Below are positions 1,926 to 9,039 of a stretch of 64,000 nt of DNA, piece by piece; the first letter of the stretch is position 1; each line of letters begins with the position of its first letter. The position numbers were made by a program, and so were the translations under genes. Source of the DNA: the human T2T-CHM13v2.0 reference genome, Homo sapiens; assembly GCF_009914755.1 (NCBI RefSeq), contig NC_060936.1; one strand, given 5' to 3'. The notes under the pieces were generated by a model, which saw nothing but the letters and a program-made list of their open reading frames with translations, did no database searches and was not told where the DNA came from.

Positions 1926-4886
1926 CTAGGTGGGGCTTTGGCCGCAAAACCTACTTTTGGTCAAACTCCTTGGACCTAATGTGAGCTAGAACTTCTATTT
2001 TCCTCTTTAAGGCCTAAGCTAGAAGCCAGCTAAGAGGCTTTCCTGGCCTTCATGGCTTCCTTACTCAAACCCATCACTATGATTTTTGTCCTTTCATCAG
2101 AACAAGTGTTCAAAGAGTTTCTCTAAGGCTTGGAGCACAGCTGCTTAAGCAGTCTTACATTAATGACAAAGTGATGGTTATCAGACAGTAAGAGTAATAG
2201 GATGGAGAGTAACTACAAAAGATGTGATAAAAATGCATAAAGTAATACATAAAATATTTCATGTTTGATAAAGTCAAAGTAGAAGTTTTAGCAGTTAAAG
2301 AAAAAAACTGATCAAATTCTGGAAATGTTAACAGGTGTCATATACAGAATAATAAAAATGAACATTCAGAAAACATGTGTCAAATTTGTCAATGTAATAA
2401 TTCTGCTTTATTGTTAATCATAACTTGGTGCACTATTTTACTAGTGTCCTGTCCTAGGTACAGGGAGAATGTAACCAAAGTGATACCAATTCCATGTCTA
2501 TTGGCTTTACTTTGCAGTTAAAATGATTCAAATTATTAAAATAAAATCAAGCTGTTTTATTCATAACGAGCCAAAGTTATCTTCTTTTGGAATATCTTTT
2601 AGAGATGATGAAAAGATGTATGAAGACCTGTGCTCAGAAATGTATTTACTACAGATCAAAAATCCAAATTACTAGAAAAATTCAATTCGAAGTAGAAAAT
2701 ACATGCTGTTGGATTCTTCATGGAATAGTAACAATACCACTGAATAGAATGTGATTTTTCACAATGTTGAATACGCTCTTAGAACGATAATTTTGTAAAC
2801 ACACTTGGGAGAATATAATTTGAATACAAATGTACTCTTATTTAGCATTTTACAGTATTTACGAATTTCAAATATATCAGAAGAGATCACTTGGCGAATT
2901 GGGAGGAAAATATATTTTTCTTCTCTGTAAGACAGAGAAGTCCAGTAAAAGAGTCCCAATTTATAGCCTCAGATTCTAAACCAAGTATGTCTTTGGCTGA
3001 AGAGATTTCTCCTGGAACATGGTGTGTGGTTCTGGGCATGACACATACAGAGGCACATAAACAACTCCAGAACTTCTAGAAGGGAACAACTGATATAGTT
3101 TGGGAGAAATCTAGCACTGAAGAAGAGTGTGCTGGAAAGATATTTGAAAAGGAGTTTGTCAGTATGGCCCAGTGACTAAAATCAGGACCAACATTATGTA
3201 AATTCAGTTGAAATGTAAGGAAAACAGATTTTAGTTGAATCATGTTCAGAAGAATTCAAATACAGAATTCAAGAAAAGGAATGAATGGTTTCTGGAGGTG
3301 GTGACATTCTTTATTTCTGGAATGTCCATAAGCAGCTATTTGGAGAGACAGTATTCTGAATTTTGAAAAAATATAAGAGGTTATAAAAGAAATCATCAAT
3401 GATACATATTAAAATTCATTATAATGAAAATAAGCTGTAAACATAACAATATAATTGAAAAAATTGCAGAAATGTGTTAAAGGATTTCTAACAATTATAA
3501 GGGATATCTAATTCTCACGTATAAAATTTCAAAACACCAAATATATGAACATAAGACACAAGTAGATAATTCATACATGGGGAATAAACAACTATAAATG
3601 TTTACCTTCACAGTTATTTAAAGAAATTCAAATTAAAACAAATATACCATGTTATACAAATAAAATAAACAAAATGGAGGACAAAAACTAAATTGGTAAT
3701 ATTCAATGGTGGCAAAAGGGTGTTTTAAAATGAACTCCATACATTGCTGGTGGCATTGTACATTGGTATAGCCTTTGCACAAGCAAGAAAACAAGTTAAA
3801 ACACATCATATAAACCATTCATAACTTGCTTCATTAAATCTATTCTTCATGATATTGTCTAAAGAAACAGCTCACGTGATATAAATTACAGTGGCATTTA
3901 TAGTAGTAAAAAAGTTAGAAGGAAATAAACTATACTTACAACAAATCGGTGAAATATGTACCAGCCATTAAACTTTTACTAACATCTAATAATTTCATTG
4001 GAACAATTGTTTCTCCAAAATTTCATGCAAAGGTGGAGATAAAATGATACACACCATGACTGCAACAATGCAAAATGTGTAGGCATGTGAGCCAAGAGAA
4101 GATAAATAAAAACAGTAGCAAAGGTGGTGAAATTACAGTGGTGATTTTCTTCCCTTCACAATTTGTCTTTAAAGGAGTAGTACTGTATTTATTTAAATAA
4201 AGAATTAGGAATGAAAATTTTTTAGACAGTTCTGTGTATACTTTTTAAAGTCTTGTTTTGATAAAGCTTGTGGTATTTTTACTTGCCTGTGAAAAACTAA
4301 CTGGCTTAGTTAGGAAAATACAGGTATATATATTTAGGGTAAATTTGTATATATATATTTTATTAAATATATGTATTTATAAAGTAGAAATATAAAAACA
4401 TAAAATATAAACATGTTTAATCAATTTGTAAACTCATTTTTTGAATGTTAGAAATAGCATTATTTTGAAATAACTGGAATATATGGCATAATATGATACA
4501 TATCGGCAACACAGTTATGCATCCGTGTACCTGGCACCCCTCGTCCACTTCTTAGGATAACTACTATCCTAATTTGATGTCTGTTATTCCCACACAATTT
4601 AATATACTTACACTTGCATAATATATGTCTACACCACATACAGGTTGTTTTTCCCATTTTAAAATTTTATAAATTATCAAAATTATAACGTTTAAAAAAT
4701 TTATTCCTTGTTATACATGTATATTCTGCATCGTAATTTTGTGTCTGGAATTGGTGGGTTCTTGGTCTTGTTGACTTCAAGAATGAAGCCACGGACCCTC
4801 GTGGTGTTACAGTTCTTAAAGATGGTGTGTCCAGAGTTTGTTCTGTCAGATGTTCAGATGTGTCCAGAGTTTCTTCCTTCTGGTGG

Positions 4887-6614
4887 TGAGAGGTGACAGC
4901 ATGCTGGCAGCCCTTGCAAGCCCTAGGTCTCTCTTGGTGCCTCCTCGGCCTTGGCACCCACTCTGGCCATGCTTGAGGAGCCCTTCAGCCTGCCACTGCA
5001 CTGTGGGAGCCCCTTTCTGGGCTGGCCGAGGTCAGAGCTGGTTCCCTCTGCTTGCGGGGAGGCATGGAGGGAGAGGTGGGGGCGGGAACTGGGGCTGCGT
5101 GTGGTGCTTGCGGGCCACTGCGAGTTCTGGGTTGAGATGGGCTCCATGGGCCCTGCACTCGGAGCAGCCGGCTGGCGCCACGCCAGGCAGTGAGAGGCTT
5201 AGCACCTGGGCCGGTAGCTGTGGAGGGTGCTCCGGGTTCCCCAGCAGTGCCGGGCCGGCGCTTCGCTCAAATTCTCACTGGGCCTTAGCTGCCTCCCCGT
5301 GGGGCAGGGCTCGGGACCTGCAGCCTGCCATGGCCGAGCCTCCCACCACCGTGGGCTCCCGCATGGCCCAAGCCTCCCCGATGAGTGCCGCCCCCTGCTC
5401 CGTGGCACCGAGGCCCTTCGACCACCCAAGGGCTGAGGAGTGTGGGCATGTGGCGTGGGACTGGCCTGCAGCTCCACCTGTGGCCCTGGTGCGGGATCTA
5501 CTAGGTGAAGCCAGCTGGGCTCCTGAGTCTAGTGGGGACTTGGAGAACCTTTATGTCTAGCTAAGGGATTGTAAATACACCAATCAGCACTCTAGCTCAA
5601 GGTTTGTAAACACACCAATCAGCACCCCCTGTCTAGCTCAAGGTTTGTAAATGCACCAATCAGTGCTCTGTGTCTAGCTGTTCTAGTGGGGACTTGGAGA
5701 ACTTTTATGTCTAGCTAGAAGATTGTAAATGCACCAATCAGCACTCTGTGTCTAGCTAAAGTTTTGTAAACACACCAATCAGTGCTCTGTGTCTAGCTAT
5801 TCTAGTGGGGACTTGGAGAACTTTTATGCCTAGCTAAAGGTTTGTAAATGCACCAATCAGCACCCTGTGTCTATCTCAAGGTTTGTAAATGCACCAATCA
5901 GTGCTCTGTGTCTAGCTAATCTAGTGGGGACTTGGAGAACTTTCGTGTCTAGCTAAAGGATTGTAAATGTACCAATCGGCACTCTGTGTCTAGCTCAAGA
6001 TTTGTAAACGCACCAATCAGTGCTCTGTCAAAATGGACCAATCAGCCTTCTATAAAATGGACCAATCAGCTCTCTGTAAAATGGGCCAATCAGCTCTCTA
6101 TAAAATGGATCAATCAGCAGGATGTGGGTGGGACCAGATAAGGGAATAAAAGAAGGCTGCCCCAGCCAGTAGTGGCAACCTGCTTGGGTCCCCTTCCACA
6201 CTGTGGAAGCTTTGTTCTTTCGCTCTTTGCAATAAATCTTGCTGCTGCTCACTCTTTGGGTCCGCACTGCCTTTATGAGCTGTAACACTCACCACAAAGG
6301 TGTGCAGCCTCACTCCTGAGGCCAGTGAAACCACAAACCCACCAGGAGGAATGAACAACTCCAGATGGAAGGAACGAACAACTCCAGACGCGCCACCTTA
6401 AGAGCTGTAATGCTCACAGCGAAGGTCTGCAGCTTCACTCTGGAAGCCAGTGAGACCACGAACCCACCAGAAGGAAGAAACTCTGAACACATCTAAACAT
6501 CAGAAGGAACAAACTCCGGACACGCTGCCTTTAAGAACTGTAACACTCACCGCAAGGGTCCGGGGCTTCATTCTTGAAGTCAGTGAGACCAAGAACCCAC
6601 CAATTCTGGACACA
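4887..6614 (+). mobile_element. ERV9 solo LTR, LTR12C/E-like (1728 bp), nested inside the host LTR12
   Basis: Starts TGAGAGGTGACAGC at 4887 and ends CCACCAATTCTGGACACA at 6614. TSD GTGG at 4883-4886 and 6615-6618. Removing it restores ttccttctggtgggttcgtgg of the host. GC-rich U3 with tandem CCAAT repeats. Confidence 0.95.
5530..6151 (+). promoter_or_regulatory. LTR12 enhancer/promoter: 12 intact CCAAT (NF-Y) boxes, 4 GTGGGGACTTGGAGAAC units, GATA site and AATAAAA TATA-like box
   Basis: CCAAT boxes counted from 5580 to 6090. AGATAA at 6136-6141 and AATAAAA at 6145-6151. ERV9 LTR promoter architecture is established knowledge; activity of this copy is not shown by sequence. Confidence 0.7.
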
Positions 6615-7009
6615 GTGGGTTCGTGGTATCAGTGACTTCAGGAGTGAAGCTGCAGACCTTCACGGCGAGTGTTACAGCTCTTAAAGGTGGCGCGTCAGGA
6701 GTTGTTCATTCCTTCCTGTGTGTTTGTGGTCTTGCCAGCCTCAGGAGTGAAGCTGCAGACCTTCACGGTGACTGTTACAGTTCATAAAGGTGGTGCGTCC
6801 AGAGTTGTTCCTTCCTTCTGGTGGGTTCGTCGTCTCACTGGCTTAAGGAGTGAAGCTGCAGACCTTCGTGGTGAGTGCTACAGGTCTTAAAACACAGCAG
6901 GGACCCAAAGAGTGAGCAGCAGCAACATGTATCGCGAAGAGAGAAAGAACAAAGCTTCCATGGCGTGGAAGGGGACCTGAGCAGGTTGCTGCTACTCGCT
7001 CAGGTGGCC

Positions 7010-7215
7010 TGCTTTTATTCCCTTATCTGGCCTCACCTACATCCTGCTGATTGGTCCATTTTACAGAGAGCTGATTGGTCCGTTTTACAGAGAGCTGATT
7101 GGTCCATTTTGACAGAGTGCTGATTGGTGCGTTTACAAACCTTTAGCTAGACAGAGTGGTGATTGGTGCATTTACAATCCTTTAGCTAGAGGGAAAAGTT
7201 CCCCAAGTCCCCACC
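7010..7215 (-). promoter_or_regulatory. Host LTR12 promoter (5 CCAAT boxes, GATA, AATAAAA TATA-like box), pointing leftwards
   Basis: Plus strand gcttttattcccttatct (7011-7028) is the reverse complement of AGATAAGGGAATAAAAGC. ATTGG occurs five times in 7050-7170. Confidence 0.6.
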
Positions 7216-7927
7216 TGTCCAAGAAGCCCAGCCAACTTCACCTCTCACTGGCACTCTCTGCCAGACTTTGTGGCTCCTAGCTCTGGCATTCTGGCAGCCC
7301 AGAGAGAGGTTGCCCCAGACAACCAAGAGGAAAAGAGGGGAAGCGAGAAAGAGACAGAGACCCACCATCCTGGCCAACAACCCTGCGAAGAGGGAAATTG
7401 GCAGTCCATGCACAGGACCCAGCCTCTGATCAAGCCCAGCAGGCACAGGCTGGCCACGTGGAGTGTGGGGCCCTCCAAGCCGCGCCCACCCAGAACCTAG
7501 GCCAGCCTGCCAGCGCGGCTTGCAGTCCCGGCTCCCACCTGTGCCTCTCCCTCCACACCTCCCTGCGAGCAGAGGGAGTCGGCTCCAGCCTTGGCCAGCC
7601 CCAGAGAGGGGCCCCCACAGCACAGCGGCCGGCTTAAGGGCTCCTCGAGCATGGCCAGAGTGGACGCTGAGGCTGAAGAGGCACAGAGAGCAAGCAAGGG
7701 CTGCTAGCACGTTGTTACCTCTCAATTTTTCTAAACATTGTTTGTGAGACTCATTCTTGTTGGTATATGTAGTTTTATTTATTTTCATTCGAGTATTCCA
7801 AATAAACATACCACATTTTGTTTATCAATGACTGTATTAACATTTGAATGGTTTCCAGTATTCTGTTATTACAAATAAAGCTGTTATAAACATCTTCTTG
7901 TCCATGTGTATGAGAATTCTTCTATAT

Positions 7928-8125
7928 CACTTCTGTTGAATAGAACATTTTACAATTATAGAAATGTTCATTGTGCTGCCCAATAGAGTAGTCACTAGTC
8001 ACAGAGTAGCTACTGAGCTCTTGAAATGTGGCTCATGCAAATGGAGAACTGAATGTAATTTAATTTTAATACATTTTAATTTAATAGCCACAAATGGCCA
8101 GTGGCTACTGCATTGAACAGTGCAG
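7928..8125 (+). mobile_element. MER3 (hAT-Charlie)
   Basis: ctgttgaatagaac...gaaatgttc...gtagtcactagtcac...ttgaaatgtggct...aatagccaca...gtggctactgcattgaacagtgcag. Confidence 0.75.
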
Positions 8126-9039
8126 TTCTAGATCATGTACTTGGGAGTATATACTGAGTCATGCACATCTTCAACTTTCTGCACTGCAAAGTTACCCTCC
8201 AAACTGGTTTGGAGATGTGTGTATAGTGTACAAGCACAGTATTCCTGTTGTTTCATATGCTCACCAATATCTGGTGTTATATTACTTTTTAATTTTGTCA
8301 TTTTTGCCTATTGCATCATTGTGGTTTTAATATACATTTACTTGATTACTAGTGACCCTAAGCAAATTTTACATGCTTGTTAGTCATTCTGGGATTTCCT
8401 TTCTTGTAGCATACCTAGGCATTGCTTCTGATCATTTTTCTGTTGGATGCATTGTACTTTTCTTCTTTTTAGGACATATATATATATATATATATATATG
8501 CATATATATATGCTTTTTGAGTTTATTTAAAAGTATTCTAAAGCCAAAAACAATTCTAATTTTTTTTCATAAATTTATTTTATTTTTCACATTTTGGTCT
8601 TTCTCTTATGTGGAATTTATTTTTATGAAATAAGGATCAATGTCTATGTTTTTGCTTTCCCATAATCAATTTCACAGCCTCGCTCAGTGTAACTTCTATC
8701 CTCTATCAAGTATCTATATGTGTATAGGATGGTTTCTGAGTTTTTGATGAAAATGTTCATGTTATCTAGCTTGTCTATTCCTAAAACAATGACTCTTAAT
8801 TCCTATAGCTTTATACCTTCTTGATACATGGTAGAATAAGTATCCCCTGTCTCCAAATAGAATCTTTTCTCAAAGTATTCCTGGCTATTCTTGGACATTT
8901 GTTTTTCTATAATAGTTTACAATCACCTTAAAATAACATTTTTAAAATTATAACTACTGGGGAGAATTGATATTTTTGTGACATTGTCTTTCTGCCCATT
9001 ATTTCATTAAATTGAATATTCTTTCATGTTAAATCCTTT

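What the first reader, a model, noticed from the sequence alone, without database searches (positions are those of the whole stretch)
4736..7728. LTR12 nested head-to-head inside another LTR12, both TSDs intact
Seen directly: a plus-strand 1728-bp LTR12 (4887-6614, TSD GTGG) sits in the 3' (U5) part of a minus-strand ~1253-bp LTR12D-like solo LTR (TSD ATTT), which itself interrupts an old L1M. This records two independent ERV9 integrations at one spot, each later reduced to a solo LTR. Both promoter cores are retained and face each other ~860 bp apart (AATAAAA boxes at 6145 and ~7015). LTR12 elements are established NF-Y-dependent promoters, active in germ cells and inducible by HDAC/DNMT inhibitors. 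Inference: this is a primate-specific convergent promoter cassette ~5 kb past the NELL2 poly(A) site.
Basis: partly seen in the sequence, partly recalled or inferred. Interest (0 to 1): 0.8.

Follow-up and report, generated by a model that had tools for sequence, protein, structure and literature searches.

The report
Two nested convergent ERV9 solo LTRs
Two leftover control regions (solo LTRs) of the ancient primate retrovirus ERV9 lie one inside the other, pointing at each other, about 5 kb beyond the end of the NELL2 gene; the structure is real but of an ordinary, well-known kind, and any activity at this spot is untested.

Summary
The structure is real. A plus-strand LTR (4887-6614, 1728 bp, TG..CA) is flanked by GTGG. 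It splits a minus-strand LTR (4740-4886 plus 6615-7724, 1253 bp) that is flanked by ATTT. In 6 of 12 fetched uninterrupted relatives of the outer LTR, its two pieces map side by side with exactly 4 bases of overlap. This means a clean integration, not an inversion.

Both belong to ERV9/LTR12. The inner is colinear with named LTR12C copies. Its 5' extension piece has 2410 first-look candidates, against 2453 LTR12C in print. The outer is a rarer type with 131 candidates. Its extension is shared with the named LTR12D of DHRS2 and its relatives. LTR12D versus LTR12E stays open.

Divergence puts both in the age class of the IRGM LTR12C copy, which is shared by human and orangutan and absent from macaque. 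That suggests roughly 15-30 million years, the outer being older by nesting.

The promoter motifs are there, 861 bp apart and convergent. No transcript is annotated. RefSeq marks 7055-8056 as an hESC enhancer. The L1M flank label was not verified. The "promoter cassette" remains an inference.

The parts
4736..4739 (.). Left copy of the outer element's target-site duplication (ATTT)
   Evidence: Read. Identical to 7725-7728.
4740..4886 (-). Outer LTR, 3' piece. It holds the last U5 repeat unit and the LTR end. Its last 4 bases, 4883-4886 (GTGG), are the left copy of the inner element's TSD.
   Evidence: I7, I15; D5 and D9 repeat units. In one search it maps to the 3' end of 10 of 12 outer-type relatives at 80-89% identity.
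4887..6614 (+). Inner solo LTR, 1728 bp, LTR12C-type
   Evidence: many genomic matches span 1-1728; colinear with the named LTR12C copies of IRGM (query 1-1723) and HBB (1-1728).
4887..5526 (+). Inner LTR: GC-rich 5' extension (640 nt, GC 0.68)
   Evidence: aligns 1-640 with all 6 named LTR12C copies; 2410 first-look candidates for 5190-5490; base composition.
5527..6140 (+). Inner LTR: U3 tandem-repeat enhancer. It has a 41-nt period (about 11 copies, arranged as a 119-nt higher-order unit x 3.7) followed by a 24-nt period x 4.4. It carries 12 CCAAT, 4 GTGGGGA and a GATA-like site at 6136.
6145..6179 (+). Inner LTR core promoter: AATAAAA box at 6145-6151 and the printed TSS-associated motif with 1 mismatch at 6169-6179
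   Evidence: The motif is from PMC12587700 (passage read).
6231..6236 (+). AATAAA in the inner LTR's R region
6263..6614 (+). Inner LTR U5, with 3 tandem units spaced 125 and 133 nt apart
   Evidence: D4.
6615..7724 (-). Outer LTR, 5' piece (1110 nt). Its first 4 plus-strand bases, 6615-6618 (GTGG), are the right copy of the inner element's TSD.
   Evidence: genomic matches span 1-1110; colinear with fetched relatives.
6615..6923 (-). Outer LTR U5: a tandem array with a 103-nt period. TRF reports 2.5 copies over 6638-6891; the repeat finder reports 3 copies over 6615-6923. A fourth unit lies in the 4740-4886 piece.
   Evidence: (D3, D5).
7013..7214 (-). Outer LTR promoter and short U3 repeat region. 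AATAAAA lies at 7013-7019 and a GATA-like site at 7022. There are 5 CCAAT (7050-7162), as 24-nt x 3.4 plus 39-nt x 2.1 repeats, and 1 GTGGGGA at 7208.
7215..7724 (-). Outer LTR 5' extension (510 nt, GC 0.63). Its middle part is rare in the genome.
   Evidence: aligns 1-507 with all 12 fetched relatives, but only about 1-270 with the LTR12C copies; 131 candidates for 7300-7520.
7725..7728 (.). Right copy of the outer element's TSD (ATTT)
6179..6985 (.). Near-palindromic stretch: R-U5 of the inner against R-U5 of the outer, meeting at 6614/6615
   Evidence: As one RNA strand it folds at -544 kcal/mol (z = -37 against 20 shuffles). There are 322 pairs across the junction, and the longest helix is 25 bp.
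7055..8056 (.). Two RefSeq functional-element rows named 'H3K4me1 hESC enhancer' (7055-7556 and 7557-8056). They overlap the outer LTR's U3 and 5' extension and the right flank.
   Evidence: from the annotation file supplied with the session.

Best explanation
This is a fossil of two successive germ-line integrations of ERV9, a class I, gammaretrovirus-like endogenous retrovirus whose LTRs are called LTR12.

History:
1. An LTR12D-like element integrated on the minus strand and duplicated ATTT.
2. Later an LTR12C-type element integrated on the plus strand into the U5 of the first element's LTR, 143 bases from its end. It duplicated GTGG.
3. Each provirus was reduced to a solo LTR, presumably by recombination between its own two LTRs. 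The order of those two losses cannot be read from the sequence.

Shown: the boundaries, the TSDs, the nesting order and the family. Inferred: both insertions date from about 15-30 million years ago, the age class of the IRGM LTR12C copy.

Present state: both LTRs keep CCAAT-rich U3 regions and TATA-like boxes that point at each other. The 811 bases between the expected start sites form a near-palindrome of their R-U5 parts.

Most likely behaviour (inferred): the pair is silent in most tissues, like most LTR12 copies. It is an ordinary nested repeat with latent, family-typical promoter or enhancer potential. It is not a dedicated regulator of NELL2.
For: Structure:
- Boundaries and TSDs were read directly.
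- The inner matches other genomic copies over its full length, 1-1728. The outer 5' piece matches over 1-1110.
- The two outer pieces abut with exactly 4 bases of overlap in 6 of 12 relatives.
- No other LTR12 piece lies elsewhere in the 64-kb window.

Family:
- Both align with copies named in Table 1 of PMC11853044: LTR12C at IRGM, HBB, ZNF80, GBP2, GBP5 and TNFRSF10B, LTR12D at DHRS2, and LTR12 at ADH1C.
- Both have the U3 tandem repeats with the CCAAT, GATA and GTGGGGA motifs described in that review.

Subtype:
- The inner's extension piece has 2410 candidates, against LTR12C n = 2453 in PMC8767690. The outer's has 131.
- DHRS2-like copies L045 and L046 carry outer positions about 1-300 and 417-613; L047 is shown only for 1-305.
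- L048 carries the outer-type extension through position 582, plus a 3' part 88% identical to the DHRS2 LTR12D.

Age (star-tree branch lengths):
- 5' extension, all sites / non-CpG columns: inner 0.120 / 0.041; IRGM copy 0.085 / 0.027; six named LTR12C copies 0.068-0.103 / 0.024-0.039; outer 0.115 / 0.028.
- Promoter-R segment: inner 0.057 / 0.051; IRGM 0.061 / 0.050; outer 0.090 / 0.051.
- The IRGM copy is present in human, chimpanzee, gorilla and orangutan and absent from macaque, baboon and marmoset. The paper gives about 20 million years (PMC2644816, passages read).
- In print, ERV9 entered about 30 million years ago and stopped about 6 million years ago (PMC11853044). An LTR12D in ELMO1 is dated at 20-25 million years (PMC12147996).
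Against: - The outer's divergence (0.115) is not measurably larger than the inner's (0.120). Distances alone therefore do not show the order; only the nesting does.
- The relatives were chosen as the best matches to each element. The star-tree assumption ignores sub-lineages. Only 215-435 non-CpG columns were usable, so the ages are rough.
- The outer's U3 holds only about 5 short repeat units. The printed prototype has 5-17 units of about 41 nt.
- Its U5 period (103 nt) and the inner's (125-133 nt) differ from the 72-bp unit given in PMC11853044.
- The outer's 3' half is closer to copies without the extension than to the DHRS2 LTR12D: 84-87% against 82%. Its subtype is therefore mixed or unresolved.
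- No orthologous primate sequence could be examined with these tools.
Confidence: 0.9

Rival explanations
1. The pair is an active, primate-specific convergent promoter cassette. Both LTRs fire in germ cells or after HDAC or DNMT inhibition, driven by NF-Y, and their transcripts collide or overlap downstream of NELL2.
For: - Motifs are retained. The inner has 12 CCAAT in U3, a TATA-like box and the TSS motif with 1 mismatch. The outer has 5 CCAAT in U3 and a TATA-like box.
- Family-level print, passages read: NF-Y binding to LTR12 CCAAT boxes (PMC11853044, PMC8767690); enrichment of LTR12C/D/E start sites in testis (PMC12587700); induction of LTR12 and LTR12D transcripts by trichostatin A and 5-aza-deoxycytidine (PMC12147996).
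- RefSeq enhancer rows cover 7055-8056.
Against: - No transcript is annotated from either LTR in RefSeq.
- No paper holds both LTR12 and NELL2.
- The outer has more than 2 mismatches to the TSS motif and no AATAAA in R.
- CpG observed/expected is 0.33 and 0.35. This fits long-term germ-line methylation (inference).
- PMC12587700 reports 319 start-site-bearing loci against 2772 silent ones for the family it analysed, so most copies are silent.
They could list this locus.
Confidence: 0.2
2. The pair is a hairpin RNA source. A transcript from either LTR promoter, or NELL2 read-through on the minus strand, crosses both R-U5 arms. It folds into a roughly 320-bp imperfect hairpin. A minus-strand transcript would also carry the inner U3, with its 12 CCAAT boxes, in antisense.
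For: - Fold of 6175-6985: -544 kcal/mol, against a shuffle mean of -265 (z = -37). There are 322 pairs across the junction.
- Antisense LTR12 U3 RNAs that bind NF-Y are described in PMC11853044 (passage read).
- The idea that drug-induced repeat dsRNA triggers innate sensing is recalled from the literature. It was seen here only in search listings and abstracts.
Against: - No expression evidence at this locus.
- The longest uninterrupted helix is 25 bp, and the arms are only 81-91% complementary. The duplex would therefore be imperfect.
- The fold follows automatically from any two related LTRs in inverted order. It is not evidence of selection.
Confidence: 0.1
3. The outer LTR's U3 and extension, with the right flank, act as a distal enhancer in pluripotent cells, possibly for NELL2. 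The inner LTR is irrelevant.
For: - RefSeq functional-element rows 'H3K4me1 hESC enhancer' lie at 7055-7556 and 7557-8056.
- My inference is that they derive from the ChIP-STARR-seq catalogue of PMC6084406. The RefSeqFE paper names that method as a planned source (PMC8744684, one passage read).
- LTR12-derived enhancers are in print (PMC11853044).
Against: - PMC6084406 states that only a minority of marked regions function as enhancers. LTR12 does not occur in its main text.
- A plasmid reporter assay says nothing about the target gene or the native chromatin state.
- I could not see the activity value, because supplements are closed.
Confidence: 0.15
4. This is not two integrations. It is one LTR rearranged by an inversion or an inverted duplication.
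For: Long inverted repeats lie between the two halves.
Against: - Each element is complete from TG to CA and has its own 4-base TSD.
- The arms are only 73-91% complementary.
- The U3 architectures differ, 11 x 41-nt units against about 5 short units. So do the 5' extensions, with 2410 against 131 candidates.
- The outer pieces abut exactly in uninterrupted relatives.
Confidence: 0.01

Closest known systems
LTR12C solo LTRs of ERV9, such as the IRGM promoter copy and the copy upstream of the beta-globin locus (Table 1 of PMC11853044)
   Same: - The inner element is colinear with them over its whole length.
- It has the same roughly 600-nt 5' extension, the 41-nt U3 repeats with CCAAT, GATA and GTGGGGA, the TATA-like box and a repeated U5.
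- Its divergence is similar.
   Different: - No gene or transcript is known to start in it.
- Its branch length in the extension is somewhat longer than any of the six named copies, 0.120 against 0.068-0.103.
- It lies inside another LTR12.
LTR12D, such as the alternative promoter of DHRS2 (PMC11853044), and the LTR12D in ELMO1 intron 13 (PMC12147996, not fetched)
   Same: - The outer element shares with the DHRS2 copy positions 1-195 of the extension and positions 404-613, which run into the U3 repeats. LTR12C copies align with the outer's extension only over about its first 270 positions.
- DHRS2-like copies L045 and L046 carry outer positions about 1-300 and 417-613. L048 joins the outer-type extension (through position 582) to a DHRS2-like 3' part.
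   Different: - The outer has about 114-144 more bases in the extension than the DHRS2-type copies.
- Its U3-R-U5 part is closer to extension-less LTR12-type copies (84-87%) than to the DHRS2 copy (82%).
- LTR12E could not be compared, because no securely named copy was at hand.
Nested transposable-element insertions used for relative dating (general knowledge, recalled)
   Same: A younger element interrupts an older one with its own TSD, which gives the order of events.
   Different: Here host and guest belong to the same family and lie in opposite orientation. This creates a near-palindrome.
Inverted-repeat retroelement pairs as sources of intramolecular dsRNA (recalled; seen only in listings and abstracts)
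   Same: Two related repeats in inverted order within one possible transcript. A long hairpin is predicted.
   Different: - The arms are LTRs that carry their own promoters, not SINEs inside a host transcript.
- No expression or editing data exist for this locus.

Membership tests
ERV9 / LTR12 (class I ERV LTR) | Sequence similarity and colinearity with copies named LTR12-type in print | tested here: met
   - Eight of nine named loci taken from Table 1 of PMC11853044 were found at the predicted places. The CCR4 stretch L008 gave no alignment of 100 bases or more; shorter ones were filtered out.
- The inner aligns 1-1723 / 1-1728 with the IRGM and HBB copies.
- The outer aligns with the DHRS2 LTR12D and the ADH1C LTR12 at 82-84% over about 500 bases.
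ERV9 / LTR12 (class I ERV LTR) | LTR termini TG..CA with a short (4-bp) target-site duplication. That 4 bp is typical of class I ERVs is recalled, not tested. | tested here: met
   both elements start TG and end CA. The TSDs GTGG and ATTT each match 4 of 4.
ERV9 / LTR12 (class I ERV LTR) | U3 enhancer of 5-17 tandem repeats of about 41 nt carrying CCAAT, GATA and GTGGGGA motifs (PMC11853044) | tested here: met
   - Inner: 41-nt period x 11.0, 12 CCAAT, 4 GTGGGGA.
- Outer: met only in part, with 39-nt x 2.1 plus 24-nt x 3.4, 5 CCAAT and 1 GTGGGGA.
ERV9 / LTR12 (class I ERV LTR) | U5 of variable length made of tandem units (72-bp 'B elements' in PMC11853044) | tested here: inconclusive
   Both U5 regions are tandemly repeated. 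The units are 125-133 nt apart (inner) and 103 nt apart (outer), not 72.
LTR12C / LTR12D / LTR12E group | About 600-nt extension at the 5' end (PMC8767690, PMC11853044) | tested here: met
   The inner has 640 nt before the first U3 repeat and the outer 510 nt.
LTR12C (inner element) | Assignment by the Repbase/Dfam library (RepeatMasker) | not testable with these tools
   - No repeat library is at hand, and the supplied masked-repeat rows carry no names.
- Indirect evidence: full colinearity with 6 named LTR12C copies, and 2410 candidates for its extension against n = 2453 in print.
LTR12D (outer element) | Assignment by the Repbase/Dfam library; architecture like named LTR12D copies | tested here: inconclusive
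   - It shares with the DHRS2 copy extension positions 1-195 and positions 404-613, which run into the U3 repeats.
- It shares more with DHRS2-like copies, but it has about 114-144 extra bases.
- 131 candidates lies between the printed counts for LTR12E (104) and LTR12D (377).
- No secure LTR12E comparator was available.
Solo LTR | LTR bounded directly by its TSD, with no internal proviral sequence | tested here: met
   - the TSD copies touch both ends of each LTR.
- no further LTR12 sequence lies in the 64-kb window.
NF-Y-dependent LTR12 promoter (function) | NF-Y occupancy and transcription start at the U3/R border | not testable with these tools
   Only the motifs could be checked. No annotated transcript exists.

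The most novel reading that the evidence does not exclude
The tail-to-tail LTR12 pair is an epigenetically gated hairpin-RNA unit. When either NF-Y-type promoter is de-repressed (germ line, early embryo, inhibitor-treated tumour cells), or when NELL2 transcription reads through, a single transcript carries both R-U5 arms. It folds into a roughly 320-bp duplex. On the minus strand it also carries an antisense CCAAT-rich U3 decoy. This one locus would then feed dsRNA sensing, A-to-I editing or NF-Y titration.
Probability: 0.08. Interest if true: 0.5.

Novelty: already known. Interest (0 to 1): 0.22.

Why it matters
As it stands this is a tidy textbook case. The nesting gives a firm relative order for two ERV9 integrations, and the site could serve as a phylogenetic marker in catarrhine primates.

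It would matter more if the locus proved to be transcribed. Either promoter alone would produce a long intramolecular hairpin, because the two LTRs meet tail to tail. Such LTR12 inverted pairs would then be candidate contributors to the dsRNA seen after epigenetic drug treatment.

Nothing found here suggests a role in NELL2 regulation beyond a reporter-assay-type enhancer annotation over the outer LTR.

Tried and rejected
1. **Naming the flank as L1M.**
   - Pfam scans of 4 right-flank and 10 left-side open stretches gave no L1 domain.
   - A PDB sequence search of the 46-aa right-flank piece found nothing.
   - Genome searches showed the right flank to be an old dispersed repeat. The left flank matched only itself.
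   - Sensitive blastn of the left flank against 8 right-flank relatives found nothing.
   - The likeness I saw by eye to the end of L1 ORF2 is recalled. It comes from no call, so the label stays unverified.

2. **Getting a named LTR12E.** The imprinting preprint (10.1101/723254, passages read) names an 'antisense LTR12E' at SORD.
   - I fetched the SORD gene and 16 kb beyond it.
   - I found a single LTR12 element (L031:1673-3286), in sense orientation and LTR12C-like.
   - I could not equate it with the printed element, so LTR12E versus LTR12D stays open.

3. **The CCR4 LTR12C.** My coordinate guess was evidently wrong. L008 gave no alignment of 100 bases or more, and I dropped it.

4. **Absolute dating with a substitution rate.** I rejected this because the rates would be recalled. 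I scaled to the IRGM copy instead.

5. **Rfam.** No family matched in 4000-8500.

6. **Literature.**
   - No paper holds both 'LTR12' and 'NELL2'.
   - Supplements are closed. Tables of drug-induced or CAGE start sites, and the hESC enhancer activity values, could bear on this locus.

Full report
**Observation**

- A plus-strand element runs from 4887 (TG...) to 6614 (...CA), 1728 bases. GTGG lies just before it (4883-4886) and just after it (6615-6618).
- Around it lies a minus-strand element in two pieces, 4740-4886 and 6615-7724. Together they make 1253 bases once the duplicated GTGG is counted once.
- ATTT sits at 4736-4739 and again at 7725-7728.
- The repeat finder reports long inverted-repeat arms between the two elements. 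Examples are 6054-6274 against 6890-7110 at 86%, and 5984-6094 against 7046-7156 at 91%.
- The repeat finder and TRF also report tandem arrays in both U3 and U5 regions.
- The AATAAAA boxes are at 6145-6151 (+) and 7013-7019 (-), with 861 bases between them.
- By the supplied gene table, the NELL2 3' end (12949) is 5221 bases from the right TSD.

**One split LTR, not an inversion**

I searched the reference genome with the inner element and with the larger outer piece.
- Only 40 of 4655 and 39 of 4728 first-look candidates were scored, so these are samples, not censuses.
- Many copies match the inner over 1-1728 and the outer piece over 1-1110.

I fetched 12 outer-type relatives with about 200 bases (up to 400) beyond the end of the match at the 3' side. 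I then aligned the two outer pieces to them separately.
- In 6 of 12 the end of the large piece and the start of the small piece fall on the same 4 bases. That is what a 4-base target-site duplication predicts.
- In L012, L013 and L016 this holds for the main alignment. In L014, L015 and L021 it holds for a secondary alignment one U5 repeat unit away.
- The other 6 are uninformative. L010 and L020 show no alignment of 120 bases or more to the short piece. L011 is off by a few gapped bases. L017-L019 have fewer U5 units.

Four facts together exclude the inversion or inverted-duplication rival:
- Each element has complete TG..CA ends.
- Each has its own TSD.
- The U3 architectures differ.
- The 5' extensions differ.

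**Family**

A review of LTR12 (PMC11853044, passages and Table 1 read) lists named copies with hg38 positions.
- I placed nine of them in this assembly by gene-coordinate offsets. Eight were found exactly where predicted. The CCR4 stretch missed.
- The inner element aligns end to end with the IRGM (1-1723) and HBB (1-1728) LTR12C copies. Its 640-nt 5' part aligns 1-640 with all six named LTR12C copies.
- That fits the printed statement that LTR12C, D and E carry a roughly 600-nt 5' extension (PMC8767690, PMC11853044).
- A 301-base piece of the inner's extension has 2410 first-look candidates. Print gives 2453 LTR12C copies (PMC8767690).
- The inner is therefore LTR12C-type, not plain LTR12. 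The named plain copy at ADH1C is 740 bases and lacks the extension.

The outer element also has an extension (510 nt).
- LTR12C copies align with it over only about its first 270 positions.
- A 221-base piece from its middle has only 131 candidates.
- The named LTR12D at DHRS2 matches outer positions 1-195 and 404-613.
- DHRS2-like copies L045 and L046 carry about 1-300 and 417-613; L047 is shown only for 1-305.
- L048 joins the outer-type extension (through position 582) to a 3' part 88% identical to the DHRS2 copy.
- Against this, the outer's own U3-R-U5 part is closer to extension-less copies than to DHRS2: 84-87% against 82%.
- I therefore call it LTR12D-like and leave LTR12E open. My attempt to obtain a named LTR12E at SORD failed.

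**Age**

Nesting makes the outer insertion older.

For absolute age I built no consensus.
- I aligned homologous segments of each element with its fetched relatives.
- I computed Jukes-Cantor pairwise distances, over all columns and over columns free of CpG in every row.
- I solved for star-tree branch lengths.

| Element | 5' extension (all / non-CpG) | Promoter-R segment (all / non-CpG) |
|---|---|---|
| Inner | 0.120 / 0.041 | 0.057 / 0.051 |
| IRGM LTR12C | 0.085 / 0.027 | 0.061 / 0.050 |
| Six named LTR12C | 0.068-0.103 / 0.024-0.039 | not given |
| Outer, in its own group | 0.115 / 0.028 | 0.090 / 0.051 |

- The IRGM copy is reported in human, chimpanzee, gorilla and orangutan and absent from macaque, baboon and marmoset. 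The paper gives about 20 million years (PMC2644816, passages read).
- The inner is thus 0.9 to 1.5 times as diverged as that calibrator.
- The review puts ERV9's entry at about 30 million years ago and its end at about 6 (PMC11853044). An ELMO1 LTR12D was dated at 20-25 million years (PMC12147996).
- I conclude both insertions fall at roughly 15-30 million years.
- The caveats are wide error, relatives picked by similarity, and an idealised star tree.
- The distances do not themselves separate the two ages.

**Flanks**

The claim that the outer element interrupts an old L1M could not be reproduced.
- The right flank is an old dispersed repeat that reaches to within 7-17 bases of the insertion.
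- The left flank matched nothing but itself.
- No L1 protein domain was detected in the flank pieces.

**Regulatory content**

Inner:
- 12 CCAAT in U3, plus one in U5.
- 4 GTGGGGA and a GATA-like site at 6136.
- The TATA-like box.
- The TSS-associated motif printed in PMC12587700, with 1 mismatch, at 6169.
- AATAAA in R at 6231.

Outer:
- 5 CCAAT in U3, plus one in the extension.
- 1 GTGGGGA, a GATA-like site and the TATA-like box.
- More than 2 mismatches to the TSS motif, and no AATAAA in R.

Other points:
- CpG observed/expected is 0.33 and 0.35.
- RefSeq annotates no gene or transcript between TMEM117 (96 kb to the left) and NELL2.
- RefSeq does carry two functional-element rows, 'H3K4me1 hESC enhancer', at 7055-7556 and 7557-8056. 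They overlap the outer U3, its extension and the right flank.
- That these come from the ChIP-STARR-seq catalogue of PMC6084406 is my inference.
- No paper holds both LTR12 and NELL2.

**A consequence of the geometry**

The U5 tails meet at 6614/6615, so the stretch between the two expected start sites is a near-palindrome.
- Folded as one RNA strand, 6175-6985 gives -544 kcal/mol, against -265 +/- 7.5 for 20 shuffles (z = -37).
- There are 322 pairs across the junction, 21 of them G-U. The longest helix is 25 bp.
- Any transcript from either promoter, or NELL2 read-through, would contain both arms.
- This follows automatically from two related LTRs in inverted order. It is not evidence of function. 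I list it as the boldest reading that the data do not exclude.

**Verdict**

The structural observation is right and well above chance. The family is ERV9/LTR12, with an LTR12C-type inner element inside an LTR12D-like outer element. Both are old hominoid- or catarrhine-era solo LTRs.

This is an ordinary nested repeat that any RepeatMasker track would show. That statement rests on general knowledge, since no such track was available here. The functional 'convergent promoter cassette' is a motif-based inference without locus-specific support. No Rfam family lies in the region, and no further LTR12 sequence lies in the window.

Noticed in passing
window 7055-8056: Two RefSeq functional-element rows, 'H3K4me1 hESC enhancer', overlap the outer LTR's U3 and extension and the right flank.
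   Followed up: partly
window 4736-4918, 5467-6303, 6309-6618, 7000-7217: The reference's own soft-masking covers only the tandem-repeat, promoter and U5 parts of the two LTRs. Both GC-rich 5' extensions (about 4919-5466 and 7218-7724) are left unmasked.
   Followed up: no
L001:3841-4501 (G000 chr14, about 1 kb downstream of the DHRS2 LTR12D): A second LTR12-type copy sits without a detectable 5' extension in the fetched stretch. It is the best fetched match to the outer element's U3-R part (87% over 532 bases). It is cut off by the end of the fetched stretch.
   Followed up: partly
L031:1673-3286 (G000 chr15, SORD intron): This is the only LTR12 element found in SORD plus 16 kb downstream. 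It is 1614 bp, LTR12C-like and in the same orientation as SORD. A preprint describes an antisense LTR12E-initiated transcript at SORD. The two could not be reconciled.
   Followed up: partly
G000 chr4:102670451-102671357: A further LTR12-type copy lies about 1.4 kb from the named ADH1C LTR12 promoter copy, in the opposite orientation. It is 86% identical to the outer element's 3' half.
   Followed up: no
window 7186-7809 (minus strand): A 207-aa open frame runs through the outer LTR's GC-rich 5' extension. It is most likely a by-product of base composition. It was not searched.
   Followed up: no
window 4420-4739: The AT-rich left flank has no other match in the genome at this tool's sensitivity, whereas the right flank is an old dispersed repeat. 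The host sequence at the outer element's insertion site is therefore asymmetric, or too decayed to recognise.
   Followed up: partly
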